Position numbers and translations under genes: made by a program. This document shows positions 22,171-43,312 of a stretch of 64,000 nucleotides of DNA, piece after piece (within the stretch, counting starts at the first letter, position 1; each line of letters opens with the position of its first letter). A model generated the notes under the pieces. That model was not told the origin of the DNA. It made no database searches and saw only the letters and a program-made list of their open reading frames with translations. The stretch is taken from NCBI RefSeq assembly GCF_009914755.1, contig NC_060945.1; one strand, 5' to 3'. Source of the DNA: the human T2T-CHM13v2.0 reference genome, Homo sapiens.

Positions 22171-23466
22171 AGATCTGGCAAGATTTCTGAATAGGAACAG
22201 CTCCGGCCTGCAGCACCCAGTGAGATCAACACAGAAGTCAGGTGGTTCATGCATTTCCAACTGAGCCTCCACTGGTGATACCGAGGCAAAAAGGGTCTGG
22301 AGTGGACCTCCAGCAAACTCGAGCAAACCTGCATCAGAGGGACCTGACTGTTAGAAGGAAAACTAACAAACAGAAAAGAATAGTATAGACATCACCAACA
22401 TCAAAGACCAAAGGTAAATAAATCCACAAAGATGGGGAGAAACCAGTGCAAAAATGCTGAAAACTCCAAAAGTCAGAATGCCTCTTCTCCTCCAGAAGAT
22501 CACAACTCCCCGCCAGCAAGGGAACAGAACTGGACAGACAATGAGTTTGACGAATTGACAGAAGTAGGCTTCGGAAGGTGGGTAATAAAAAACTCCTCCG
22601 AGCTAAAGGAGCACGTTCTAACCCAATGCAAGGAAGCTAAGAGTCTGAAAAATAAAGGTTAGACGAATTGTTAACTAGAATAACCAGTTTAGAGAAGAAT
22701 ATAAATGACCTGATGGAGCTGAAAAACCCAGCACAAGAACTTCATGAAGCATACACAAGTATCAATAGTTGATTCAATCAATCAGGAGAAAGGATATCAG
22801 AGATTAAAGATCAACTCAATGAAATAAAGAAAGAAGGCAAGATTAGAGAAAAAAGAGTGAAAAGAAATGAACAAAGCCTCCAAGAAATAGAGGACTATGT
22901 TAAAATACTGAATCTACGTTTGATTGGTGTACCTAAAAGTGACAGAAAGAATGGAACCAAGTTGGAAAAAACTCTTAAGGATATTATCCAGGAGAACTTC
23001 CCCAACATAGCAAGACAGGCCAACATTCAAATTCAGGAAATACAGAGAACACCACTAAGATACTCCTCAAGAAGAGCAACCCCAAGAAACAAAATCATCA
23101 GATTCACCAAGGTTGAAATGAAGGAAAAAATATTAAGGGCATCCAGAGAGAAAGGTTGAGTTACCCACAAAGGGAAGTCCGTCAGACTAACAGTGGATCT
23201 CTTGGCAGAAAACCTACAAGACAGAAGAGAGTGGGGGCCAATACACAACATTCCTAAAGAAAAGAATTTTCAAGCCAGAATTTCATATCCAGCCAAACTA
23301 AGATTCATAATTGAAGGAGAAATAAAATCCTTTACAAGCAAATGCAGAGAGATATTGTCACCACCAGGCCTGCCTTACAAGAGCTCCTGAAGGAAGCACT
23401 AAACATGGAAAGGAACAACTGGTAACAGCCACTGCAAAAACATACCAAATTATAAAGACTATTGAC
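22171..23466 (+). mobile_element. L1PA 5' end: shortened 5'UTR plus disrupted ORF1; truncated just after the ORF1 stop
   Basis: 5' terminus caagat..gaataggaacagctccgg; ORF1 ATG at 22432 (MGRNQCKNAENSKSQNASSPP); ORF1p motifs NLRLIGVP, IIQENFPN, ARISYPAKL; frameshifts present. Confidence 0.95.
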
Positions 23467-25508
23467 TCCCTCTGAAATCTGGGCGTGGTGGGGGAGTAGC
23501 TGGGACAGACAGGAGAGTCCCAGGGGGCTGGGGGTGAAGACATGAGAGAGACAGGGGAGTAACTCAGTGAAACTGCTGAGTTTGTAGGTGATACCTGGGT
23601 GCCTGGAACTGACTCCTGCTGAAATCTGGGCATGGTTGGAGAGTAGCTGGGACCCACAGGAGAGTCCCTGAGGGCTGGGGGTGAAGACATGAGAGAGACC
23701 GGGGAGTAACTGAGTGAAACTGGTGAGTTTGGTGGTGACTCCGGGGTGCCTGGAACTGACTCCAGCTGAAATGTGGGCGTGGTTGGAGAGTAGCTGGGAC
23801 AGACAGGAGAGTCCCTGAGGGCTGGTGAAGACGTGAGAGAGACTGGAGAGTAATTGAGTGAAATTTGTGAGTTTGGTGGTGATTCCTGGGTGCCTGCAAC
23901 TGACTCCCGCTGAAGTGTGGGCGTGGTTGGAAGGTAGCTGGGACACACAGGAGAGTTACTGAGGGTTGGAGATAAAGACGTGCTAGAGACTGAGGAGTAA
24001 CTGAGTGAAATTGGTGAGTTTGGTGGTGATTCCGGGGTGCCTGGAACTGACTCCAGCTGCAATGTGGGCGTGGTTGGAGAGTAGCTGGGACAGACGGGAG
24101 AGTCCCTGAGGGATGGTGAAGACATGAGAGAGACTGAGGAGTAATGCAGTGAAATTGGTGAGTTTGGTGGTGATTTCTGGGTGCCTGCAACGGACTCCCG
24201 CTGAAGTGTGGGCGTGTTTGGAGAGTAGCTGGCACAGAGAGGCGAGTCCCTGAGGGTTGGAGATAAAGACCTGCTAGAGACTGGGGAGTAACTCAGTGAA
24301 AGTGGTGGGCTTGGCGGTGATCCCTGGGTTCCTGGAACTGACCCGCTCTGAAATGTGGGCGTGGTTGGAGAGTAGCTGGGACAGACTGGAGGGTCCGTAA
24401 GGCCTGGGGGTGAAGACGTGAGAGAGACTGGCCAGGATCTCACTGAGGTCTGTGAGTTTGTAGGTGTTTCTGGGGTGTGGGGTACAGACTCCCGCTGATA
24501 TCTGGGCATGGTTGGAGAGTAGCTGGGACAGACAGGAGAGTCATGGGTGGCTGGGGGTGAGCTGCTGGATGACGGCAGTAAGAACATATGGTATATTATT
24601 GATGAATGAGGTGACTGTGAAGAATCTCCACAGGAGGACACCGGAGAACACAATGATATGAGTGACTGTCCTGCTTGGTTAGGAAAGGGAAACGTAAAGC
24701 TGTGGAATTCTGTTGATGATGGATGTGAGAGTGGTGAAGCCCTGCGGGATGATGTAGAGTACTTCCACATCCCTGGTGAGGAGCTACCCCTTGGGTCTGA
24801 CTTTCTGGGATGGGAGAGGGAGAAGGTGGGTGAGGCAGGCATGAATCTTGAGGAGTCAGGCCTGGGGGACCGCTCATATTCTCCCGAGACCTGTGAGTCT
24901 CTGGGGGACTCCTGGGTGCATGGGGCTGACTCCCGCAGGAACCTGGGGATGGCTGGAGAGTTACTGGGAGCCACAGGAGAGTCCCTGAGTACTGGGGGTG
25001 AAGAGATGAAAGACACAGGGGTGGAGCACCGTGAGGCTCGTGAGTCTGTAGGTGATTCCTGGGTGTGGGGGGCTGACTCCAGCTGAAATCTGGGGTTGTT
25101 TGGAGAGCAGTTGGGAGACACAGCAGAACCCCGGAGAGTTGGGGGTGAGCTGCTGGGTGATGGCAGTAAGAACATGTGGTATATTATTGATGAACGTGGG
25201 GACTCTGAGGAATCCTCAGAGGAGGACACGGGAGAGCCCGATGGCTTCATTGATTGCCCATCACGGTGAGGACAGGGAAATGGGAGCTTCTGGGATTCTG
25301 GTGATGACACAGGTGAGTGTGGTGAAGCCCTAGGGGATGGTGAATGGTAGCTCCGGATCCCTGGTGAGGAGCTTCCCCTTAAGCCTGAGTTTCTGAGAGG
25401 GGAGAGGGAGAAGCTGGGTGAGGCTCGCATGGACCTTGGGGAGTCCGGGCTGGGGGACCGTTCATAAGAAGAGCCAGACAAGACCCTACTGTTCTTAGGT
25501 GCAGACAT
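23358..25508 (-). CDS. ACRO1 unit copy 1: uninterrupted 716-aa Ser/Pro-rich ORF with Pol II CTD-like heptads; last ~35 aa come from antisense L1
   Basis: Single open frame from the first ATG downstream of a TATA/Inr; 49-aa repeats; translation not demonstrated. Confidence 0.45.
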   Translation of the reverse strand: MSAPKNSRVLSGSSYERSPSPDSPRSMRASPSFSLSPLRNSGLRGSSSPGIRSYHSPSPRASPHSPVSSPESQKLPFPCPHRDGQSMKPSGSPVSSSEDSSESPRSSIIYHMFLLPSPSSSPPTLRGSAVSPNCSPNNPRFQLESAPHTQESPTDSRASRCSTPVSFISSPPVLRDSPVAPSNSPAIPRFLRESAPCTQESPRDSQVSGEYERSPRPDSSRFMPASPTFSLSHPRKSDPRGSSSPGMWKYSTSSRRASPLSHPSSTEFHSFTFPFPNQAGQSLISLCSPVSSCGDSSQSPHSSIIYHMFLLPSSSSSPPATHDSPVCPSYSPTMPRYQRESVPHTPETPTNSQTSVRSWPVSLTSSPPGLTDPPVCPSYSPTTPTFQSGSVPGTQGSPPSPPLSLSYSPVSSRSLSPTLRDSPLCASYSPNTPTLQRESVAGTQKSPPNSPISLHYSSVSLMSSPSLRDSPVCPSYSPTTPTLQLESVPGTPESPPNSPISLSYSSVSSTSLSPTLSNSPVCPSYLPTTPTLQRESVAGTQESPPNSQISLNYSPVSLTSSPALRDSPVCPSYSPTTPTFQLESVPGTPESPPNSPVSLSYSPVSLMSSPPALRDSPVGPSYSPTMPRFQQESVPGTQVSPTNSAVSLSYSPVSLMSSPPAPWDSPVCPSYSPTTPRFQRESIVFIIWYVFAVAVTSCSFPCLVLPSGALVRQAWW
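23467..25470 (-). repeat. ACRO1 147-bp satellite array (copy 1, inverted, truncated)
   Basis: Reverse complement of the 147-bp unit cccagctactctccaaccacgccca...gggactctcctgtctgt. Confidence 0.9.
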
Positions 25509-25847
25509 GATTAGGAAACCTACAGCTCCCAGGGGCCCCTACTAATTTTCTAACTCGCAGAACGAAGGAGTGTGTGTGCGTGTGTGTGAGTGTGTGCGTG
25601 TGTGTGCGTGTGTGTGTGTCTGTGTGTGTGCAGTGTGAGGTATGTCCCCCTTAAGAAAATGGAAATCAACCAACCAAAGAGACAGACACACAGACAGACA
25701 CACAGACAGACAGACAGACAGACAGAGATTCACTTGCCCAAGTGTTCTGTCCTGTCCTCTGAATCCGCTTCCAAGTCGCAAGACGCCGTGAGCTCCAAGT
25801 CCACGCAGAGTCCGCCAAACGCTCCGGCCGCTGATCCGCTCCGCGAA

Positions 25848-26380: not shown

Positions 26381-26391
26381 TAATCCAATCA
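26381..26391 (+). promoter_or_regulatory. DUX4-type double-homeodomain motif TAATCCAATCA
   Basis: Exact match to TAAYYYAATCA, ~530 bp upstream of the copy 1 Inr. Confidence 0.5.
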
Positions 26392-27790: not shown

Positions 27791-27831
27791 CACACACACA
27801 CACACACACACGCACACACACGCACACACAC
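27791..27831. repeat. (CA)n microsatellite at the inversion junction
   Basis: Direct reading; the same tract lies in the 5' leader of copies 1 and 3. Confidence 0.95.
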
Positions 27832-27892: not shown

Positions 27893-30875
27893 ATGTCTGC
27901 ACCTAAGCACAGTAGGGACTTGTCTGGCTCTTCTTATGAACGGTCCCCCAGCCTGGACTCCCCAAGGTCCATGCGAGCCTCACCCAGCTTCTCCCTCTCC
28001 CCTCTCAGAAACTCAGGCTTAAGGGGAAGCTCCTCACCAGGGATCCGGAGCTACCATTCACCATCCCCTAGGGCTTCACCACACTCACCTCTGTCATCAC
28101 CAGAATCCCACAAGCTCCCATTTCCCTGTCCTCACCGTGATGGGCAATCAATGAAGCCATCGGGCTCTCCCGTGTCCTCCTCTGAGGATTCCTCAGAGTC
28201 CCCACGTTCATCAATAATATACCACATGTTCTCACTGCCATCACCCAGCAGCTCACCCCCAGCTCTCGGGGGGTCTCCTGTGTCTCCCAGCTACTCCCCA
28301 AACAACCCCAGATTTCAGCTGGAGACAGCCCCCCACACCCAGGAATCACCTACAAACTCACGAGCCTCACGGTGCTCCACCACTGTGTCTTTCATCTCTT
28401 CACCCCCAGTACTCAGGGACTCTCCTGTGGCTCCCAGTTACTCTCCAGCCATCCCCAGGTTCCTGCGGGAGTCAGCCCCATGCACCCAGGAGTCCCCCAG
28501 AGACTCACATGTCTCGGGATAATATGAGCGGTCCCCCAGCCCTGACTCCTCAAGATTCATGCCTGCCTCACCCAGCTTCTCCCTCTCCCCTCCCAGAAAC
28601 TCAGACCCAAGGGGCAGCTCCTCACCAGGGATGTGGAAGTACTCTACATCATCCCGCAGGGCTTCACCACTCTCACATCCATCATCAACAGAATTCCACA
28701 GCTTTACGTTTCCCTTTCCTAACCAAGCAGGACAGTCACTCATGTCATTGTGTTCTCCCGTGTCCTCCTCTGGAGATTCTTCACAGTCACCTCATTCATC
28801 AATAATATACCATATGTTCTTACTGCCATCATCCAGCAGCTCACCCCCAGCCACCCATGACTCTCCTGTCTGTCCCAGCTACTCTCCAACCATGCCCAGA
28901 TTTCAGCGGGAGTCTGTACCCCACACCCCAGAAACACCTACAAACTCACAGACCTCAGTGAGATCCTGGCCAGTCTCTCTCACGTCTTCACCCCAGGCCT
29001 TACGGACCCTCCAGTCTGTCCCAGCTACTCTCCAACCACGCCCACATTTCAGAGCGGGTCAGTTCCAGGAACCCAGGGATCACCGCCAAGCCCACCACTT
29101 TCACTGAGTTACTCCCCAGTCTCTAGCACGTCCTTATCTCCAACCCTCAGGGACTCGCCTGACTGTCCCAGCTACTCTCCAAACACGCCCACACTCCAGC
29201 GGGAGTCCGTTGCAGGCACCCAGAAATCACCACCAAACTCACCAATTTCACTGCATTACTCCCCAGTCTCTCTCATGTCTTCACCATCCCTCAGGGACTC
29301 TCCCGTCTGTCCCAGCTACTCTCCAACCACGCCCACATTGCAGCTAGAGTCAGTTCCAGGCACCCCGGAATCACCACCAAACTCACCAATTTCACTCAGT
29401 TACTCCTCAGTCTCTAGCACGTCCTTATCTCCAACCCTCAGGGACTCTCCTGTGTGTCCCAGCTACTCTCCAACCACGCCCACACTTCAGCGGAAGTCAG
29501 TTCCAGGCACCCAGGAATCACCACCAAACTCACAAATTTCACTCAGTTACTCCTCAGTCTCTAGCACGTCTTTATCTCCAACCCTCAGGGACTCTCCTGT
29601 CTGTCCCAGCTACTCTCCAACCACGCCCACATTTCAGCTGGAGTCAGTTCCAGGCACCCCGGAGTCACCACCAAACTCACCAGTTTCACTCAGTTACTCC
29701 CCGGTCTCTCTCATGTCTTCACCCCCAGCCCTCAGGGACTCTCCTGTGGGTCCCAGCTACTCTCCAACCATGCCCAGATTTCAGCGGGAGTCAGTTCCAG
29801 GCACCCAGGTATCACCTACAAACTCAGCAGTTTCACTGAGTTACTCCCCAGTGTCTCTCATGTCTTCACCCCCAGCGCTCTGGACTCTCCTGTCTGTCCC
29901 AGCTACTCTCCCACCACGCCCAGATTTCAGCGGGAGTCAGCCTCCCACACTCCAGAATCACCTACGGACTCACAGACTTCACTGAGGTCCTCCCCGGTCT
30001 CTCTCAGGTCTTTGCCCTCAGCCCACAGGGACTCTCGTGTCTCTTTCAGCTACTCTCAAAACTTCTCTAGGTTCCAGCTGGAGTCAGTTCCAGGCACCCA
30101 CGATACACCACCGAACTCACGAATTTCACTGACTTACTCCCCAGTCTCCCTCATGTTGTCACCCGCAGCCCTCAGGGACTCTTCTGTCTCTCTCAGCTAC
30201 TCTCCAACCATCTCCAGATTTCACCTGGAGTCAGCTTCCCGCACCCAGGAATCACCTACAAACTCACGGACCTTACTGCAACCCTCCCCCATTTCTTTCA
30301 CCTCTTCACCCCCTGCCTTCAGGGACTCTCCTGGGTCTCCCAGCTTCTCTCCAGCCTTCCCCAGATTTCTGCCACAGTCAGCCCCAGGCACCCAGGACAA
30401 CCCTAGACACTCACAGGCCTCACGACACTATCTCCGTATGACCTGTACCTATACAGGGATGGCTCCCACGCATCCCTCAGTGACCCCAAACCCATCTCCA
30501 CCTACACTCAGACACTCCCAGGGCCTGACAGCTACTCCCCGTTATTGTCCTTCAGTTCGAAGCCCTGGCCAATCTACTACCCCACATGACGCAGTTACCT
30601 GGCCATTACTCCACGGTTCCCATGAGTGCCCCACACCCAGCCGCACAAGAGCCCCTCCTGCATTCCGTCCTCACACGCAGGCCTGTCCATCTACTTGCTA
30701 CTGTCACACTCTTGCCAGCAGAAGAGGCCCCTGTCATGGCCGATATCACCACCCAGTCTATCCTCACCCCACAGCTGTGCAAAGGGTCCCTCCTGCTGGC
30801 CCACGTGGCTGCCACATCCCATGCTGGCACGACGCTCCAGCAGGTCGGCGTCCCTGCGGGACACACTACCGGTGA
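27893..30875 (+). pseudogene. ACRO1 unit copy 2 ORF, disrupted and promoterless
   Basis: TAA at 28520-28522 (GAA in copy 1); 1-bp deletions at ~28991 and ~29881; upstream TATA region replaced by the inversion junction. Confidence 0.75.
27930..30420 (+). repeat. ACRO1 147-bp satellite array (copy 2)
   Basis: Period measured 29311 to 29458 = 147 bp; about 17 units. Confidence 0.92.
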
Positions 30876-32769: not shown

Positions 32770-33255
32770 CTTCTAATTCAATGGTGACGCTATCTACCGG
32801 GACATAGCATTAGATTCCAAAGGGCCGAGTCCCGCCAGACAGGCCTCCCACACTCATAACAACGGGAAGCCCTACGTTGTTTTACCTGTGCTTCTCAGCA
32901 ACTGGCTATAAATCAGGTTGCCACCACTCCCAGATTTAGTTGCATTCATTGGCTGGAAGAGCTCACAGCACGCAGGGAAACACTTACATTTGCCATTGTA
33001 TTTTAGCGGACATTGCAAAAAGTTCAGAAATAAATGTGGGGCCCGGCATGTGGGGAGGGGCGCACTGCCTTCCAGGAAGTGTTATCCAGAAGCTCTCTGA
33101 ACCCAGTCCTTTTGGGTTTTTATGGAGACCTCATTCTATAGGCATGATGGGTTAAACCATAGGCTATTGGTGATCAACTCCACCTGAGGCTCTCAACCCT
33201 CCATGGAAATTGGGGTTGAGGCTTTGCCATTCTCAGTCTGACTAAAAGAAGTTAC
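32770..33255 (-). mobile_element. MER21-type LTR fragment upstream of ACRO copy 3
   Basis: Reverse complement of 26440-26925. Confidence 0.7.
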
Positions 33256-33303
33256 CCAAACGGAATTTTAAAACAGATGAGCATAACTGGACTCTTAATT
33301 AGA

Positions 33304-33314
33304 TGATTGGATTA
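33304..33314 (-). promoter_or_regulatory. DUX4-type motif (TGATTGGATTA)
   Basis: Identical to the copy 1 site, ~530 bp upstream of the Inr. Confidence 0.5.
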
Positions 33315-33776
33315 TCTGGACACACACCTTGATATTCCAAACCGGAGCACCCTCATGCAACGAATGCTCCACCCAACTGGCTCCCAAGTCTCCACGTGGT
33401 TCCAGAGCAAAAGAATGTTTATACAACGCATATCTCTACTTTTTCTTCAAAGTCTTTTCGCTTACACGGAAAGACTTCTTAAACTGCCATGCATCAGGGT
33501 CAGGGGGAGGTCTTGTTGCAACACACATCTGTGGATGTCCGGGATTTGATTGTGGCAAGGATGCTGCTGGTGTCGCAACCACAACGTGGGAACCACAGAA
33601 CCACTGGTTGGTTTTCAGTGTTTCAGTGCATACAATTCCTAATATATCTGGCCAAGAAAACTTGGAAGTTCTTAGATTGTCCCAAAGGTGGCGCATGAAA
33701 TCAAAGCAGGAGAACAGATTCCTACGAGGTGTAGCCTGGGAAAGTTGGGGGTGACTGATGGAAAGGAGGAGTGAAG

Positions 33777-33847
33777 CTCCGCCCTTTCCGCTGCTAGGCT
33801 GCGCCCGAGGCTATTTAAACCCACCCTGGCTGGCCTGTACTCAGATC
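33777..33847 (+). promoter_or_regulatory. Pol II core promoter of ACRO copy 3: GC box, TATA, Inr
   Basis: ctccgccc 33777-33784; TATTTAAA 33812-33819; TCAGATC 33841-33847 (YYANWYY), A+1 at 33843. Confidence 0.65.
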
Positions 33848-34170
33848 TTCGCGGAGCGGATCAGCGGCCGGAGCGTTTGGCGGACTCTGCGTGGACTTGG
33901 AGCTCACGGCGTCTTACGACTTGGAAGCGGATTCAGAGGACAGGACAGAACACTTGGGCAAGTGAATCTCTGTCTGTCTGTGTGTCTGTCTGTGTGTCTG
34001 TGTCATTGGTTGGTTGATTTCCATTTTCTTAAGGGGCACATACCTCACACCGCACACACAGAAACACACACATGCACACACACACACACGCACACACACG
34101 CACACACACTCCTTCCTTCTGCGAGTTAGAAAATTAGTAGGGGCCCCTGGGAGCTGCAGGTTTCCTAATC

Positions 34171-37154
34171 ATGTCTGCCCCTAAGAACAGTAGGGACTTG
34201 TCTGGCTCTTCTTATGAACGGTCCCCCAGCCTGGACTCCCCAAGGTCCATGCGAGCCTCAGCCAGCTTCTCCCTCTCCCCTCTCAGAAACTCAGGCTTAA
34301 GGGGAAGCTCCTCACCAGGGATCCGGAGCTACCATTCACCATCCCCTAGGGCTTCACCACACTCACCTCTGTCATCACCAGAATCCCACAAGCTCCCATT
34401 TCCCTGTCCTCACCGTGACGGGCAATCAATGAAGCCATCGGGCTCTCCCGTGTCCTCCTCTGAGGATTCCTCAGAGTCCCCACGTTCATCAATAATATAC
34501 CACATGTTCTCACTGCCATCACCCAGCAGCTCACCCCCAGCTCTCGGGGGGTCTCCTGTGTCTCCCAGCTACTCCCCAAACAACCCCAGATTTAAGCTGG
34601 AGTCAGCCCCCCACACCCAGGAATCACCTACAAACTCACGAGCCTCACGGTGCTCCACCACTGTGTCTTTCATCTCTTCACCCCCAGTACTCAGGGACTC
34701 TCCTGTGGCTCCCAGTTACTCTCCAGCCATCCCCAGGTTCCTGCGGGAGTCAGCCCCATGCACCCAGGAGTCCCCCAGAGACTCACATGTCTCGGGATAA
34801 TATGAGCGGTCCCCCAGCCCTGACTCCTCAAGATTCATGCCTGCCTCACCCAGCTTCTCCCTCTCCCATCCCAGAAACTCAGACCCAAGGGGTAGCTCCT
34901 CACCAGGGATGTGGAAGTACTCTACATCATCCCGCAGGGCTTCACCACTCTCACATCCATCATCAACAGAATTCCACAGCTTTACGTTTCCCTTTCCTAA
35001 CCAAGCAGGACAGTCACTCATGTCATTGTGTTCTCCCGTGTCCTCCTCTGGAGATTCTTCACAGTCACCTCATTCATCAATAATATACCATATGTTCTTA
35101 CTGCCATCATCCAGCAGCTCACCCCCAGCCACCCATGACTCTCCTGTCTGTCCCAGCTACTCTCCAACCATGCCCAGATTTCAGCGGGAGTCTGTACCCC
35201 ACACCCCAGAAACACCTACAAACTCACAGACCTCAGTGAGATCCTGGCCAGTCTCTCTCACGTCTTCACCCCCAGCCCTTACGGACCCTCCAGTCTGTCC
35301 CAGCTACTCTCCAACCACGCCCACATTTCAGCGCGGGTCAGTTCCAGGAACCCAGGGATCACCGCCAAGCCCACCACTTTCACTGAGTTACTCCCCAGTC
35401 TCTAGCACGTCTTTATCTCCAACCCTCAGGGAATCGCCTGACTGTCCCAGCTACTCTCCAAACACGCCCACACTTCAGCGGGAGTCCGTTGCAGGCCCCC
35501 AGAAATCACCACCAAACTCACCAATTTCACTGCGTTACTCCCCAGTCTCTCTCATGTCTTCACCATCCCTCAGGGACTCTCCCGTCTGTCCCAGCTACTC
35601 TCCAACCACGCCCACATTGCAGCTGGAGTCAGTTCCAGGCACCCCGGAATCACCACCAAACTCACCAATTTCACTCAGTTACTCCTCAGTCTCTAGCATG
35701 TCTTTATCTCCAACCCTCAGGGACTCTCTTGTGTGTCCCAGCTACTCTCCAACCACGCCCACACTTCAGCGGGAGTCAGTTCCAGGCACCCAGGAATCAC
35801 CACCAAACTCACCAATTTCACTCAATTACTCCTCAGTCTCTAGCACGTCTTTATCTCCAACCCTCAGGGACTCTCCTGTCTGTCCCAGCTACTCTCCAAC
35901 CACGCCCACATTTCAGCTGGAATCAGTTCCAGGCACCCCGGAGTCACCACCAAACTCACCAGTTTCACTCAGTTACTCCCCGGTCTCTCTCATGTCTTCA
36001 CCCCCAGCCCTCAGGGACTCTCCTGTGGGTCCCAGCTACTCTCCAACCATGCCCAGATTTCAGCGGGAGTCAGTTCCAGGCACCCAGGTATCACCTACAA
36101 ACTCAGCAGTTTCACTGAGTTACTCCCCAGTGTCTCTCATGTCTTCACCCCCAGCGCTCTGGACTCTCCTGTCTGTCCCAGCTACTCTCCCACCACGCCC
36201 AGATTTCAGCGGGAGTCAGCCTCCCACACTCCAGAATCACCTACGGACTCACAGACTTCACTGAGGTCCTCCCTGGTCTCTCTCAGGTCTTTGCCCTCAG
36301 CCCACAGGGACTCTCGTGTCTCTTTCAGCTACTCTCAAAACTTCTCTAGATTGCAGCTGGAGTCAGTTCCAGGCACCCACGATACACCACCGAACTCACG
36401 AATTTCACTGACTTACTCCCCAGTCTCCCTCATGTTCTCACCCCCAGCCCTCAGGGACTCTTCTGTCTCTCTCAGCTACTCTCCAACCATCTCCAGATTT
36501 CACCTGGAGTCAGCTTCCCGCACCCAGGAATCACCTACAAACTCACGGACCTTACTGCAACCCTCCCCCATTTCTTTCACCTCTTCACCCCCTGCCTTCA
36601 GGGACTCTCCTGGGTCTCCCAGCTTCTCTCCAGCCTTCCCCAGATTTCTGCCACAGTCAGCCCCAGGCACCCAGGACAACCCTAGACACTCACAGGCCTC
36701 ACGACACTATCTCCCTTTGACCTGTACCTGTACAGGGATGGCTCCCACGCATCCCTCAGTGACCCCAAACCCATCTCCACCTACACTCAGACACTCCCAG
36801 GGCCTGACAGCTACTCCCCGTTATTGTCCTTCAGTTCGAAGCCCTGGCCAATCTACTACCCCACATGACGCAGTTACCTGGCCATTACTCCACGGTTCCC
36901 GTGAGGGCCCCACACCCAGCCGCACAAGAGCCCCTCCTGCATTCCGTCCTCACACGCAGTCCTGTCCATCTACTTGCTACTGTCACACTCTTGCCAGCAG
37001 AAGAGGCCCCTGTCATGGCCGATATCACCACCCAGTCTATCCTCACCCCACAGCTGTGCAACGGGACCCTCCTGCTGGCCCACGTGGCTGCCACATCCCA
37101 TGCTGGCACGACACTCCAGCAGGTCGGCGTCCCTGCGGGACACACTACCGGTGA
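34171..37154 (+). pseudogene. ACRO1 unit copy 3 ORF: full-length template (994 aa reconstructed) with one nonsense codon and one frameshift
   Basis: TAA at 34798-34800 and a 1-bp deletion at ~36160; repairing both joins ORFs 34171-34800, 34837-36264 (5' part) and 36291-37154. Confidence 0.78.
34210..36700 (+). repeat. ACRO1 147-bp satellite array (copy 3)
   Basis: 147/144-bp units as in copy 2. Confidence 0.92.
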
Positions 37155-37528
37155 CATGGCTAGCATCACCCTCCTTCCTGGCAGTGACACTGTTGATGTG
37201 AACCCCAGTTTCACATCTGTCATTTGTAAATAGTACCATTTTCCCTTTTCGCTCTCCCTTCCATTCACAGGGCTTTTCATTCTCTCTGTTTCTGCCTCCG
37301 TTTCAGATATTTACTCACCTTTTTCTCTCTCACTATGTCTGCCGTGGTCTCCATGAGAGTGCGCCACATAAGATTCCCCCATTAAAAGTCATGAATTGAG
37401 TGGCTTTTAGTATACCTGTGGTTGTGCAATTTCAATTTTAATTCGCAATCCATTGTAGAACGTCTTGTCACCCCCGACCAGAGAAAAACCCTGTAGACAT
37501 TAGTCACTCCTCATTCTGTTTCAAACCC

Positions 37529-39715
37529 TCAGGGCCTGATGGGAAGGCACTTTCGTCTGTGGGTGACCCATGCCCTGCTTCTCCTTTGCACGGTTTCTTT
37601 TTTTTTTGCTACGATAGATGCCTTTCCTCTCCTTCCTCAAATCTCACCTTCCCTTCATGTGGCTTCTGTCTGCCTTGGGGTACACCTAGCGGCCCGATTT
37701 GCACTGTGGGATCGAACCAGGGACTCCAGGGTCCCTGAGGCCCAGCACAAGGCCTGATGGGAAGACACTTTCGTCCATGTGGAGGACCCAGTCCCCGCTT
37801 CTCTGTGGCTGGGTTTTTTTTTCTCTGCCCCAGGTGCCTCACCTTCCCCTCTTGTGCCTTCTGCAAGCTTTGGGGTACCCCTAGCGGCCCAAGGCACACC
37901 CTGGGCTCGAACCATGGAAGCCAGGTTCCACAGGGTCAAGCGCAGTGGCTGATGATAAGACACGTTCTTCCTCGGGGACCCCGGCTCTGCTTCTCTGTTG
38001 CGTTTTTTTTTCTTTTCTTTTCCACAGGTGCCTCACTTTCCTGTCATGGGCTTTCTGCCCGCCTTGAGGTACCCCTATCCGGCCCGAGGCGCACCCTTGT
38101 TTTGAGCCAGGGATGCTAGGGTCTCCGGGGCCCAGTGTAGGGCTTATGGGTAGGGACGTTCGTCCATGGGGAACCCAGGCCCCACTTCTGGGTGGCGCAG
38201 TTTTTTATTTTGTTCTCTGCCCCAGGTGTCTCACCTTTCCCTCATGGGCCTTCTGTCTGTCTTGGGGTACCCCTAGCGGCCTGAATCGCACCCTGGTCTC
38301 GAACCAGGAATGCCAGGGTCCCCTGTGCCCAGCGCAAGGGCTTATGGGAAGACACTTTCGTCCGTTGGGGACCCAGGCTCCGCTTCTCCGTGGTGCAGTT
38401 TTTTTTTTTCTGCCACAGGTGCCTCACCTCTCCTTCCTCAAACCTCAACTGCCCCTCATGGGATTTTAGCCCCCCTTGTGGTACCCCTAGCAGGCCCGAG
38501 GCGCACCCGGGGCTTGAACCGGGGTCTCCAGCGTCCACGGTGCCCAGCTCAGGGACTGATGGGAAGGCACTTTTTTTCCATGGGAGACCCAGGCCCCACT
38601 TTTCCGTGGCTCGGTTTCTTTTTCTTTTCTGCCACAAGTGCCTCACCTCTCCTCCCTCACAGCTCACCTTCCTCTCATGGGCTTTCCACCGCGTTGGGGT
38701 ATCCCTAGTGGCCCGAGACTCTCCATGAGCTCCAACCAGGGACTCTAGGTTCCCCGGGGCCCAGCGCAGGGGCTGATGGGAAGGCACTTTCATCCGTGGG
38801 GTACCCAGGCCCCACCTCTCCGCGGTGCGGGTTTCTTTTTTTTCTTTTTCTGTGACAGGTTCCTCACTTCTCCTCCCTCAAAACTCACCTTCCCCTCACG
38901 GGTTTTGTGTCCCCAAAGCCCCCTTGGGGTGCACTTAGTGGCCGAGGCACACCCTGAGCTCGAACGAGGGACACCAGGGTCCTTGGGTCCCAGTGCAGGG
39001 ACTGATGGGAAGACACTTTCGTCTGTGGGGCACGCAGGCCGTGTTTCTCCGTGGTGAAGTTTTTTTTTCTCTGCCCTAGGTGCCTCACCTCCCCCTTAGG
39101 GGCTTTCTGCCCACCTTGGGTACCCCTACTGTCCCGAGGCGTACCTCAGGGTCAAACCAGGGACGCCAGGGTCCCCAGGGCCCAGCGAAGGGGCTGATGG
39201 GATGGCACTTTCATCCGTGGGGGACCCAGGCACTGCTTCTCGGCTGAGCATTTTTTTTTCTCTGCCTCAGGTGCCTCACCTTCCCCTCATGGACCTTTTC
39301 TTTGCTTTGTGGTACCCCAAGCTGTCCCGAGGCACACCCTGGGCTCGAACCAGGGTCGCCAGGGTCCACCAGGCCCAGCATAGGGCCTGATGGGAAGGCA
39401 CTTTCATCCGTGGGGGACCCAAGCCCCGCTTCTCTGAGACGCGGTCCTCTTTTTTTATTTTTTCTGCCCCTGGTGCCTCACCTCTCCTCCCACAAACTTC
39501 AACTTCCACTCACGGGCCTTCTGTCCAAGTTGGGGTACCCCTAGTCGCCTGAGGCACACCCCGGGTGTGAACCAGGGATGCCAGAGTCCCTGGGGCCCAG
39601 CGCAAGGTCTGATGGGAAAAAACTCTCGTCCCTGGATGACCCAGACACTGCTTCACGGCGCATTTTTTTTTCTTCTTTGCCCCAGGTGTCTCACCTTCCC
39701 CTCATGGGCCTTCTG
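37529..39715 (+). repeat. Gamma satellite II (GSATII) array, about 11 units of ~192-229 bp
   Basis: Recurring ggctgatgggaaggcactttc...gacccaggc...poly-T...caggtgcctcacc...ggggtacccctag; anchors near 37538, 37756, 37950, 38145, 38343, 38558, 38775, 39004, 39196, 39389, 39611. Confidence 0.85.
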
Positions 39716-40484
39716 CCTCTCTGCGCCTGCGCCGGCGCTGTGGGCCTCTCTGCGCCTGCGCCGGCGCTGTGGGCCTCTCTGCACCTGCCCCGGCGCTGTG
39801 GGCCTCTCTGCGCCTTTCGCCGGCGCTGTGCGCCTTTGCGAGGGCGGAGCTGCGTTCTTCCCAGCACAGCCAAGGAGAGCATCGCCAGGGCGGAGCTGAG
39901 TTCTCCTCTGCACAGACTTCAGATATACAGCGAAGGCGGAGCAGTGTTCTCCTCAGCACAGACCCAGGCGGGCCGGGGGCACCGCGAGGGCGGAGCTGCG
40001 TTCTGCTCAGCACAGACCCGGGGGACACCGCTAAGGCAGAGCAGCGTTCTCCTCAGCACAGACCTTTGGGGCACTGCCTCGCTTTGGGACAACTCGGGAC
40101 CGCATAGACGGTGAATAAAATCCTTCCCTTTTGCAGCCCTGAATAATCAGGGCCAGAGACCAGTTAGAAGGGCTCAGTGTGGAAAAGGGAAACCAAAAGC
40201 CCCTCTGAATCCTGCCAACCGAGGTTCTCCCAAGCCAAGCCGAGGCGGCCACAGTGCGAGATCCACACCGCAGCCTCGGAAGACAAATGCAGCATTCCTA
40301 ATGCAGACATGACACCCAAATTATGACACTCCCGTTGCTCATGTAACAAGCACCTGTAATGCTAATGCACTGCCTCAATACAAAAATATTAATATAAGAT
40401 CCACAATCCCCTTGCTGCCATGCAGTCCTAAGACAGAGATCATAATAATCTACATTGACATAGTACAAACGTAGTAACGAACCT
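39716..40484 (+). repeat. TAR1 telomere-associated repeat, including four 29-bp CpG repeats and five ~46-55-bp gggcggagctgcgttc repeats
   Basis: ctctctgcgcctgcgccggcgctgtgggc x4; ggcggagc..gttctcctcagcacagac x5; typical TAR1 body. Confidence 0.9.
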
Positions 40485-40752
40485 AGGGTTAAGGTTGGTG
40501 TTAGGGTTAGGGGTTAGGGGTTAAGTTTAGGGTTAGGGGTTGGAGATAGGGGTTGGGGTCAGAGTTAAGAGTTAAGAGTCAACGTTTAGAGTTAGAGGTT
40601 AAGAGAGGTTAGGGGTTAGGGATAAGGGGTTAGGGTTGTGGTTAGGGGTTAGGCTTAGGGGTTACGGTTAAGGGTTAGGGTTAGGGTCAGGGGTTAAGGG
40701 TCAGGGTCAGTGGTTAGGGATCAGGGTCAGGGGTCAGGGTCAGGTTCAGGGG
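40485..40752 (+). repeat. Degenerate interstitial telomeric repeat (TTAGGG/TTAGGGG/TCAGGG)
   Basis: Direct reading. Confidence 0.95.
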
Positions 40753-40754
40753 TC

Positions 40755-43312
<2,558 letters not shown>

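What the first reader, a model, noticed from the sequence alone, without database searches (positions are those of the whole stretch)
35150..36250. Each 147-bp monomer is 7 x 21 bp: seven degenerate heptads in the YSPTSPS register
Seen: a consensus 49-aa unit splits as YSPTTPT / FQRESVP / GTQESPP / NSPISLS / YSPVSLM / SSPPALR / DSPVCPS, with frequent S2-P3, S/T5 and P6, and Y1 in two heptads. Monomer length variants are 147 or 144 bp, both multiples of 3. Known: the RPB1 CTD is Y1S2P3T4S5P6S7, phosphorylated by CDK7/9/12, and drives condensate partitioning. Inference: the satellite grew from a CTD-like heptad coding repeat. A product with >100 heptad-length segments could act as a CTD mimic or a decoy for CTD kinases, Pin1 or CID-domain proteins.
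Basis: partly seen in the sequence, partly recalled or inferred. Interest (0 to 1): 0.85.

Follow-up and report, generated by a model that had tools for sequence, protein, structure and literature searches.

The report
ACRO1 satellite: heptad repeat inside an ORF
The 147-base repeat is the known ACRO1 satellite of acrocentric chromosome short arms, whose likeness to the RNA polymerase II tail is already published, but it also forms the repeat domain of a roughly 1000-codon reading frame that is intact in many human copies and recognisable in marmoset, rabbit and whale.

Summary
The consensus 49-aa unit is exactly as written, and the 21-bp sub-period is significant (lag 21 = 66/147, z about 4.6). 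One monomer in the span is 146 bp and breaks the frame.

The repeat is the ACRO1 satellite inside the 6.3-kb ACRO/ACRE composite.

Descent from POLR2A is not supported. There is no Pfam CTD match, and codon identity at shared residues is 7/22 against 6.4 expected.

I found no paper describing the following. The YSP frame is a 993-codon ATG-to-stop ORF. The frame is open for at least 1002 codons in 112 of 150 genome copies sampled. Marmoset, rabbit and whale gene models resemble it.

All three window copies are broken or truncated. No amino-acid constraint shows among human copies (dN/dS near 1). Translation and any CTD-decoy role are untested.

The parts
35119..36676 (+). ACRO1 147-bp array of unit C (the finding): 10.6 monomers, each 7 x 21 bp
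   Evidence: TRF; monomer lengths and translations; 21-bp periodicity
34171..37154 (+). Decayed copy of the family ORF in unit C. ATG at 34171, premature TAA at 34798-34800, 1-bp deletion at about 36160 (the 146-bp monomer), family stop at 37152-37154.
   Evidence: ORF list; stops per frame; three-copy alignment, where copy A has G at 34798 and an extra G at 36160; sequence around the ATG
33304..33314 (-). DUX4-type motif TAATCCAATCA, 867 bp upstream of the ATG of unit C
   Evidence: Pattern scan: 2 hits in the window, 0.98 expected by chance, so not significant by count. The same motif sits at -848 to -889 in 34 of 35 family units examined. The consensus TAAYBBAATCA is recalled, not taken from a tool.
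33811..33820 (+). TATA-like CTATTTAAAC followed by a CpG-rich stretch; candidate promoter about 350 bp before the ATG
   Evidence: Read from the sequence; present in 26 of 35 family units; promoter function is inferred
28841..30397 (+). ACRO1 array of unit B, tandem sister of C (98.6% identical over 3464 bp, period 6276). Its ORF remnant 27893-30875 carries the same stop and frameshift plus a further 1-bp deletion near 28993.
23464..25508 (-). Inverted unit A. The ORF is open from its ATG (25508) through 7.5 monomers with no stop or frameshift, but the unit is cut off at 23463 inside the array. The open frame listed is 23358..25538 (726 aa).
26381..26391 (+). The same DUX4-type motif upstream of inverted unit A
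27791..27793 (.). Head-to-head junction of unit A (inverted) and unit B at the (CA)n tract. B therefore lacks the upstream promoter region.
   Evidence: blastn self-comparison; TRF (CA)n at 27791-27831

Best explanation
The span is the ACRO1 satellite, the 147-bp tandem core of the 6.3-kb ACRO/ACRE composite repeat of acrocentric short arms. Each monomer is seven diverged 21-bp units whose DNA consensus reads YSPVSLT. S/T-P falls at heptad positions 2 and 5, as in the Pol II CTD. This likeness is real and already published, and I find nothing showing that it comes from POLR2A.

The array is the repeat domain of a single-exon ORF. The ORF has a 14-aa leader, about twenty 49-aa units of different ages, and a 153-aa Cys/His/Pro-rich tail, 993 codons in all. 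Each composite unit carries this ORF behind a DUX4-type site and a TATA-like box, with ATTAAA 226 nt after the stop.

Most likely ACRO is a tandemly amplified old eutherian gene, a coding macrosatellite like D4Z4/DUX4. It would be transcribed at the cleavage stage and encode a disordered Ser/Pro-rich protein with about 100 proline-directed sites. The three copies in this window are dead members: one truncated, two with a stop and frameshifts.

Shown: the identity, the periodicity, the ORF, its intactness across copies, and the homologues. Inferred: promoter use, translation, and any function of the protein.
For: Identity. The repeat has a 147-bp unit, 1.56-kb blocks and a 6276-bp period, and it lies on 21p. 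The published FISH primers for the 4p11 Acro repeat (Warburton 2008) hit beside every array (6 and 2 hits, 0 and 0.01 expected).

ORF. Copy A is open for 726 aa. In unit C the YSP frame has 1 stop in about 1004 codons, against 13 and 20 in the other two sense frames.

Own genome. 28 of 36 units held carry an intact 993-codon ATG-to-stop ORF. In a contiguous, unselected chr14 stretch, 5 of 6 units do. A 100-aa N-terminal probe found 577 candidates, of which 150 were scored. By my count from that table, the open frame is at least 1002 aa in 112, 955-958 aa in 14, 906 or 982 aa in 2, and under 900 aa in 22. Frame lengths mostly step by 49 aa.

Old in-frame history. Two 588-bp blocks (4 x 147 bp) are 74% identical with no indel, and P(no stop) is 0.02-0.03 by simulation. 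The only fixed monomer length change is 3 bp.

Other species. A marmoset model is collinear with the human ORF from M1 over 591 aa, with 67% identity and 5 gap positions, and has the same tail. A rabbit model scores library-wide E 3e-28 and pairwise E 2e-41, with a 49-aa period and the CPSxCYCH tail motif. Whale models score pairwise E 2e-19 and share the I(I/M)YHMF motif.

Flanks. The motif counts are given.

Literature (passages read). [quoted passage not shown]
Against: There is no amino-acid constraint among human copies. Of 181 distinct variants in 22 unique intact ORFs, codon positions take 58/58/65, and 55 are synonymous against 49.6 expected. dN/dS among the window copies is 0.68-1.57. 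In the central monomers 45 changes are synonymous against 42.7 expected. The old blocks give only 0.66, against 0.81 and 1.55 in the control frames.

In the part of the ORF not biased by my sampling (codons 692 to the end), the indel to substitution ratio (2/78) is no lower than in the flanks (11/283 outside microsatellites).

Arrays are homogenised, so intact copies are not independent, and gene conversion can restore ORFs (caveat in bioRxiv 10.64898/2025.12.22.696095).

This composition keeps other sense frames fairly open. In the true POLR2A CTD exon a wrong frame is open for 425 codons.

All three copies in this window are defective, and RefSeq lists no gene here.

Boots et al. report no stable ACRO1 transcripts in HeLa, and sense ACRO1 inserts abolish reporter RNA.

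The marmoset, rabbit and whale proteins are automatic models. The whale match is weak library-wide (E 7e-4). I saw no ribosome-profiling or peptide evidence.
Confidence: 0.6

Rival explanations
1. ACRO1 is a non-coding satellite. The long frame is a by-product of C-rich, stop-poor, homogenised sequence. Whatever the element does, it does as RNA or chromatin: sense transcripts bind Pol II as aptamers and cut short their own transcription (Boots et al. 2020), or the arrays mark nucleolus-associated chromatin.
For: Reporter data: sense ACRO1 inserts of 1.1-1.4 kb almost eliminate RNA and the reverse complement does not (section read). No amino-acid constraint is seen. Sense-strand stop triplets are under-represented overall (34 in 3014 nt, against 186 on the other strand). 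The CTD exon also has an open wrong frame. No gene is annotated here.
Against: The stop depletion is frame-specific (1 against 13 and 20). Old duplicates kept the frame with no indel at 26% divergence. The start, the collinear body and the tail are recognisable in marmoset and rabbit proteins at 67% and 35% identity, which neutral DNA would not keep open. The RNA shows no special fold (z 0.01) and matches no Rfam family.
Confidence: 0.27
2. The repeat descends from the POLR2A CTD coding heptads, and its product acts as a CTD mimic or decoy for CTD kinases, Pin1 or CID proteins.
For: 22-23 of 49 residues are identical to CTD windows, and S/T-P sits at positions 2 (33) and 5 (15) among 53 sites. 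Six of the 7 PDB hits listed are RPB1 chains. NCBI's pipeline names the marmoset, rabbit and whale models RPB1. Short blastn pieces of 27-42 nt at 80-89% identity match the CTD exon.
Against: The PDB E-values are 0.52-4.6, and a monomer profile finds nothing at E up to 10. No Pfam family is matched on 993 aa. PF05001 finds the POLR2A exon, but none of its 17 matches lies in ACRO. There is no exact YSPTSPS in 993 aa. Third codon positions match at 18/49, and the same codon is used at 7 of 22 shared residues against 6.4 expected. Best DNA identity is 83/147, against 78.1 +/- 2.9 for the same protein with redrawn codons (P 0.067). The 49-aa unit is already present in rabbit, so the repeat is old and not a recent CTD copy. 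Binding or decoy activity is untested.
Confidence: 0.08

Closest known systems
ACRO1 satellite in the ACRO / ACRE 6-kb composite repeat (Warburton et al. 2008, PMC2588610; Boots et al. 2020, PMC7714431; acrocentric T2T preprint 10.64898/2025.12.22.696095)
   Same: 147-bp unit, about 1.6-kb blocks, 6-kb higher-order unit with inversions, acrocentric short arm, and published probe primers that match. The in-silico translation 23/49 identical to the CTD with heptad periodicity is already stated by Boots et al.
   Different: None in identity: this is that element. The papers I read treat it as a non-coding satellite or RNA aptamer source and call it primate-specific. They do not describe the 993-codon ORF or the rabbit and whale protein homologues (searches; passages).
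RPB1 C-terminal domain heptad repeats (Pfam PF05001)
   Same: 7-residue period, Tyr1 in 2 of 7 heptads, Ser2-Pro3 in 5 of 7, S/T-P also at position 5, Ser/Pro/Thr-rich and presumably disordered
   Different: There are no exact consensus heptads, no Pfam or significant HMMER match, no polymerase core, and no excess codon identity with the POLR2A exon. The unit is 49 aa with seven distinct heptads, not one homogenised heptad.
Coding macrosatellites such as D4Z4/DUX4 (also RS447/USP17L, CT47, TAF11L; recalled from memory)
   Same: A kb-scale tandem unit, each with its own upstream region and a complete intronless ORF. It lies in heterochromatin, is linked to the DUX4 and cleavage-stage programme, and many copies decay while the family frame persists.
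   Different: The ORF is low-complexity with no recognised domain. Translation has not been shown. No amino-acid constraint is seen among human copies.
NCBI automatic models named 'DNA-directed RNA polymerase II subunit RPB1' in Callithrix jacchus (P0003), Oryctolagus cuniculus (P0046) and Balaenoptera ricei (P0093)
   Same: Homologues of the ACRO ORF: same start (marmoset, whale), the I(I/M)YHMF motif, Ser/Pro repeats and the CPSxCYCH tail (marmoset, rabbit)
   Different: They are 575-832 aa and carry none of the polymerase, so the name comes from low-complexity likeness. The gray-whale model P0092 ends in a DUX4-like C-terminus (94% identical to P0094) and may be chimeric.

Membership tests
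ACRO1 satellite / ACRO (ACRE) composite | 147-bp tandem monomer | tested here: met
   TRF period 147 in three arrays; spacings 147/144/146
ACRO1 satellite / ACRO (ACRE) composite | 1.3-2.4-kb arrays inside a roughly 6-kb higher-order unit, sometimes inverted | tested here: met
   1.56-kb arrays, tandem period 6276 bp at 98.6% identity, one inverted copy at 97.2%; published description
ACRO1 satellite / ACRO (ACRE) composite | Sequence match to published probes for the Acro 6-kb repeat | tested here: met
   Primer 4p11-bL: 6 hits with 0-2 mismatches next to the arrays. Primer 4p11-bR: 2 hits with 2 mismatches. Chance expectation 0.00 and 0.01.
ACRO1 satellite / ACRO (ACRE) composite | Match to the Repbase/Dfam ACRO1 consensus | not testable with these tools
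   No repeat library is on hand. Boots et al. print no sequence in the main text or the held supplement.
RPB1 CTD heptad repeat (Pfam PF05001) | Scores over the Pfam cut-off for RNA_pol_Rpb1_R | tested here: not met
   No hit at E up to 10 on the 487-aa, 219-aa and 993-aa ORFs. In the six-frame genome search, 13 of 17 matches lie on the POLR2A exon on C17, 3 on C16 and 1 on C1, and none in ACRO (150 of 629 candidates scored).
RPB1 CTD heptad repeat (Pfam PF05001) | Tandem copies of the consensus YSPTSPS | tested here: not met
   0 exact heptads in 993 aa, with 17 YSP. The POLR2A exon has 21 exact heptads.
RPB1 CTD heptad repeat (Pfam PF05001) | Common descent with the POLR2A CTD exon (codon-level similarity) | tested here: not met
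   Same codon at 7/22 shared residues against 6.4 expected; third positions 18/49; DNA identity explained by the protein pattern (P 0.067)
Coding macrosatellite (D4Z4/DUX4 type) | Each tandem unit holds a complete ORF that is intact in many copies | tested here: met
   112 of 150 sampled copies have an open frame of at least 1002 aa. 28 of 36 units held carry a 993-codon ATG-to-stop ORF.
Coding macrosatellite (D4Z4/DUX4 type) | ORF conserved in other species | tested here: met
   Marmoset 67% over 591 aa; rabbit E 2e-41 with the tail motif; whales E 2e-19. All are automatic gene models.
Coding macrosatellite (D4Z4/DUX4 type) | Purifying selection on the protein | tested here: inconclusive
   dN/dS is near 1 among human copies, yet the frame, start and tail motifs persist over deep divergence
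Coding macrosatellite (D4Z4/DUX4 type) | The product is translated | not testable with these tools
   No expression or proteomic data are on hand. The literature read shows only transcripts.

The most novel reading that the evidence does not exclude
ACRO arrays are not just satellite DNA but a multicopy gene. Well over a hundred intact copies of an old eutherian ORF sit on the distal short arms next to the nucleolar organisers. DUX4 switches them on at the 4-8-cell stage. The roughly 1000-residue product carries about 100 S/T-P sites in CTD-like heptad phase and competes for CTD kinases, phosphatases or prolyl isomerases, or seeds condensates, while the embryonic genome and nucleoli are first activated.
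Probability: 0.2. Interest if true: 0.85.

Novelty: new member of a known kind. Interest (0 to 1): 0.6.

Why it matters

What would matter is the ORF. ACRO is reported as the repeat class most specific to great-ape acrocentric short arms after rDNA. It is induced by DUX4 and peaks at the 4-cell stage, yet it is treated as non-coding. If each unit carries a frame kept from rabbit and whale to human, then ACRO joins D4Z4/DUX4 as a coding macrosatellite of the cleavage-stage programme. The function of ACRO then becomes directly testable by ribosome profiling, peptides and knock-down in DUX4-induced cells.

It also shows that several database proteins named RPB1 are mis-named members of an uncharacterised family.

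Tried and rejected
- Pfam on the window ORFs and the full 993-aa ORF gave only noise (DCR, E 0.36 and 2).
- A monomer profile against PDB sequences gave nothing at E up to 10.
- Rfam on 33000-41000 gave nothing. An RNA fold of two monomers had z 0.01.
- Scans of genome contigs and viral contigs for more copies gave no confirmed locus.
- Boots et al.'s main text and held supplement carry no ACRO1 sequence, so identity could not be checked against their consensus. I used Warburton's primers instead.
- One search used a wrong frame offset, corrected. One search used an anchor that matched nothing, replaced. One search picked the wrong frame of the CTD exon, corrected.
- The literature search was badly specified (it did not require ACRO1) and gave nothing usable.
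- Pfam on the whale and rabbit models gave no family.
- The count of DUX4-type motifs in the window (2 against 0.98 expected) is not significant on its own.
- I did not fold the protein or run a complex prediction, because a Ser/Pro-rich repeat would give an uninformative model.
Full report
OBSERVATION

Tandem Repeats Finder reports a 147-bp array at 35119-36676 (10.6 copies, 81% matches). There are two sister arrays, at 28841-30397 and, on the other strand, 23463-24560. Cutting at the Tyr codon gives 23 monomers.

The 21-bp sub-period is real.
- Circular autocorrelation of the consensus is highest at lag 21 (66/147, first of 73 lags). This gives z 4.5-4.7 against mononucleotide, dinucleotide and codon shuffles. 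Lags 42 and 63 are also raised.
- In the raw span 35150-36250 the six best lags under 147 are the six multiples of 21. Lag 21 ranks first in 7 of 9 monomers.
- The 21-nt consensus of the seven sub-units reads YSPVSLT.
The shuffle null for the best register has mean 12.6 and maximum 20 in 20000 trials.

One detail is wrong. The monomer at 36037-36182 is 146 bp.

IDENTITY AND WHAT IS IN PRINT

The arrays are 1.56 kb long.
- Units B and C are tandem copies 6276 bp apart, 98.6% identical over 3464 bp.
- Unit A is an inverted copy, 97.2% identical over 4335 bp, cut off at 23463.

Warburton et al. 2008 (PMC2588610, passages read) describe roughly 6-kb units with roughly 1.6-kb blocks of the 147-bp Acro satellite on 4p11 and all acrocentric short arms. 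Their probe primers hit the window next to each array (6 hits and 2 hits; 0.00 and 0.01 expected). The repeat is therefore ACRO1 in the ACRO/ACRE composite.

Boots et al. 2020 (PMC7714431; abstract, sections 7, 9 and 24 and passages read) already state three things. The translated ACRO1 consensus shares 23 of 49 residues with the Pol II CTD and reflects its heptad periodicity. ACRO1 RNA is a Pol II-binding aptamer. Sense inserts of 1.1-1.4 kb nearly abolish reporter RNA in cis, with no stable transcripts in HeLa.

IS IT CTD-DERIVED?

- Pfam finds no family on the window ORFs or on the full family ORF.
- Against PDB sequences, 6 of the 7 hits listed are RPB1 chains, but with E 0.52-4.6. A profile of 13 monomers finds nothing at E up to 10.
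- I ran the Pfam CTD model PF05001 over the window's own genome. Of its 17 matches, 13 lie on the POLR2A CTD exon on C17, 3 on C16 and 1 on C1, and none lies in an ACRO array (150 of 629 candidates scored).
- I aligned the monomer to that exon. It reaches 22-23/49 identical residues, reproducing Boots et al. DNA identity by codon position is 34/25/18 of 49. The same codon is used at 7 of 22 shared residues, against 6.4 expected from the two codon usages.
- Best DNA identity is 83/147, against 78.1 +/- 2.9 for the same protein with codons redrawn (P 0.067). blastn gives only 27-42-nt pieces.

The likeness is one of pattern. Descent from POLR2A is not supported, though a very old link cannot be excluded.

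THE FRAME RUNS BEYOND THE ARRAY

In unit C the YSP frame is open from 34141 to 37154 (about 1004 codons). It is interrupted only by one TAA at 34798 and the 1-bp deletion at about 36160. The other two sense frames carry 13 and 20 stops, and the opposite strand 45-93 per frame. Copy A has G at 34798 and keeps the base at 36160, so both lesions are recent. Its frame is open for 726 aa until the unit is truncated. Copy B has a further 1-bp deletion. All three window copies are therefore defective.

THE FAMILY IN THE GENOME

A six-frame search of the window's own genome with copy A's ORF gave 2408 first-look candidates. Of the 64 scored, 53 have no stop inside the match, and most open frames are 1002-1004 aa. 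They lie on C3, C4, C13, C14, C15, C21 and C22. That list favours intact copies, so I made two less biased checks.
- A contiguous 40-kb stretch of the distal chr14 array whose units were absent from that list holds 6 complete units. Five carry an intact 993-codon ATG-to-stop ORF and one has a single stop.
- A 100-aa N-terminal probe, which is blind to the state downstream, gave 577 candidates, of which 150 were scored. By my count from the table, the open frame is at least 1002 aa in 112, 955-958 aa in 14, 906 or 982 aa in 2, and under 900 aa in 22. Frame lengths mostly step by 49 aa: 1003, 1052, 1101, 1149, 1248.

The ORF has a 14-aa leader, two old blocks of 4 x 49 aa, about ten younger monomers (two of them 48 aa), and a 153-aa Pro/Thr/Arg/His/Cys-rich tail. 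It is 23.6% Ser and 18.4% Pro. It has 17 YSP, 84 SP, 17 TP and no exact YSPTSPS. Within the monomers, 48 of 53 S/T-P sites fall at heptad positions 2 or 5.

SELECTION: EVIDENCE ON BOTH SIDES

Against constraint on residues:
- Among 22 unique intact ORFs there are 181 distinct variants, with codon positions 58/58/65 and 55 synonymous against 49.6 expected.
- The window copies give dN/dS 0.68-1.57.
- The central monomers show 45 synonymous changes against 42.7 expected.
- In the part of the ORF untouched by my sampling bias, the indel to substitution ratio is 2/78. In the flanks outside microsatellites it is 11/283.
- Homogenisation and gene conversion make copies non-independent and can restore frames, a caveat stated in the acrocentric preprint.
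- The real CTD exon has a wrong frame open for 425 codons.

For constraint on the frame:
- The two old 588-bp blocks are 74% identical with no indel. Simulation gives P(no stop) of 0.02-0.03, and the other two frames behave as simulated.
- The central monomers have 0 stop-creating changes against 4.9 expected. This null may overstate, because the control frames show 1 against 4.4 and 2 against 3.3.
- Fixed length changes are 3 bp or whole monomers. The 1-bp changes are confined to young copies.

OTHER SPECIES

A word-indexed search found 11 proteins. One is a marmoset nr/UniRef model named 'DNA-directed RNA polymerase II subunit RPB1' (832 aa). Another is an unnamed 652-aa ORF running from the same start to the same '...HYR' end. 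A human unit and the marmoset model are collinear from M1 over 591 aa (67% identity, 5 gap positions) and again through the tail.

An exhaustive HMMER search of 1.84 billion representatives gave 86 hits at E up to 0.001, none longer than 607 aa. Look-ups named two of them:
- P0046 is a rabbit nr model, again called RPB1.
- P0092 is a gray-whale hypothetical protein. Its relative P0093 from Rice's whale is also called RPB1.

The rabbit protein aligns with E 2e-41 pairwise and 3e-28 library-wide. It shares the tail motif CPSxCYCH, and its strongest internal period is 49 aa. The whale match is weaker (7e-4 library-wide, 2e-19 pairwise) but shares the start and the I(I/M)YHMF motif. The last roughly 90 residues of the gray-whale model are 94% identical to a DUX4-like protein of the same species. 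The model may therefore be chimeric, or the genes may be neighbours.

Boots et al. report no non-primate homologue by DNA search. At the protein level the family appears older. All these proteins are automatic predictions.

GENE-LIKE FLANKS AND EXPRESSION

Upstream of the ATG (34171) lie a DUX4-type motif (33304-33314), a TATA-like CTATTTAAAC (33811-33820), a CpG-rich stretch, and (TCTG)n and (CA)n tracts. Among 35 family units, the motif is present at -848 to -889 in 34, the TATA-like word in 26, and ATTAAA 226 nt after the stop in all. The copies are 97-99% alike, so this shows presence, not selection. Two motif hits in the window is no more than chance. The motif consensus is recalled.

Passages read in PMC8990217, PMC11467316, PMC12776069, PMC6545021 and PMC5832720 say that DUX4 induces ACRO1 transcripts. 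[quoted passage not shown]

IS THE ORF IN PRINT?

- Searching 'ACRO1' with 'open reading frame' found 10 papers, 8 listed.
- Searching 'ACRO1' with 'ORF' found 5 papers, 3 listed.
- I checked the ORF passages only in the two versions of the acrocentric preprint, and they concern other genes. I read only the ACRO1 passages of the FSHD preprint and the contamination paper.
- Boots et al. contain no 'open reading'.
- I did not open the other listed papers.

READING

Most likely (0.6), ACRO1 is the coding repeat of an old eutherian ORF that primates amplified as a macrosatellite. The window holds three dead copies. Transcription from the DUX4-type and TATA region, translation, and any role of the Ser/Pro-rich product are inferred.

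The main rival (0.27) is a non-coding satellite acting through RNA or chromatin, with the frame as a by-product. The published aptamer effect fits either reading.

Noticed in passing
window 37643-40753: Just after unit C comes a subtelomere-like block: a CpG-rich 195-bp tandem repeat (37643-39483), a 29-bp repeat x4.1 (39715-39835) and degenerate TTAGGG-type repeats (40487-40753). From memory it resembles TAR1/TERRA-promoter repeats, here interstitial on 21p.
   Followed up: no
window 36865-37225: The first exon of the RefSeq pseudogene LOC124908136 ('translation initiation factor IF-2-like') overlaps the C-terminal tail of the ACRO ORF in unit C (ORF end 37154). The name is probably another low-complexity label.
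   Followed up: no
window 27791-27831 and 34053-34109: Units A (inverted) and B meet head to head at the (CA)n tract of the 5' leader. Across 35 family units the (TCTG)n and (CA)n tracts hold 22 of the 29 indels in the 5' flank.
   Followed up: partly
L035/L036 (G000:C17:7416052-7419450): In the true POLR2A CTD exon a wrong sense frame is open for 425 codons, longer than the real frame's 399. Heptad Ser/Pro DNA keeps other frames open, which is a caution for any ORF-length argument.
   Followed up: partly
P0092, P0093, P0094 (whale proteins): The gray-whale homologue ends in a C-terminus 94% identical to that of a DUX4-like protein of the same species. Either the model is chimeric or the ORF lies next to a DUXC-type array. 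Given the DUX4-type site upstream of the human ORF, this is intriguing.
   Followed up: no
G000, many places (table): Open frames of ACRO units come mostly in steps of 49 aa (1003, 1052, 1101, 1149, 1248). Subfamilies are array-specific, for example 1101 on C22:3.9-4.1 Mb and C15:1.9-2.0 Mb, and 1003 on the distal C14 and C21 arrays.
   Followed up: partly
ORF tail, window 36695-37154 and alignment A3: The 153-aa tail is rich in Cys and His. Its motif CPSxCYC(H/Q) is kept in human, marmoset, rabbit and the unnamed P0095. It may be a small metal-binding element.
   Followed up: no
P0007, P0008-P0011: ACRO ORF pieces appear as 'proteins' of unrelated organisms, such as a Plasmodium ovale wallikeri hypothetical protein. 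This fits the human-contamination problem described in PMC6581058.
   Followed up: no
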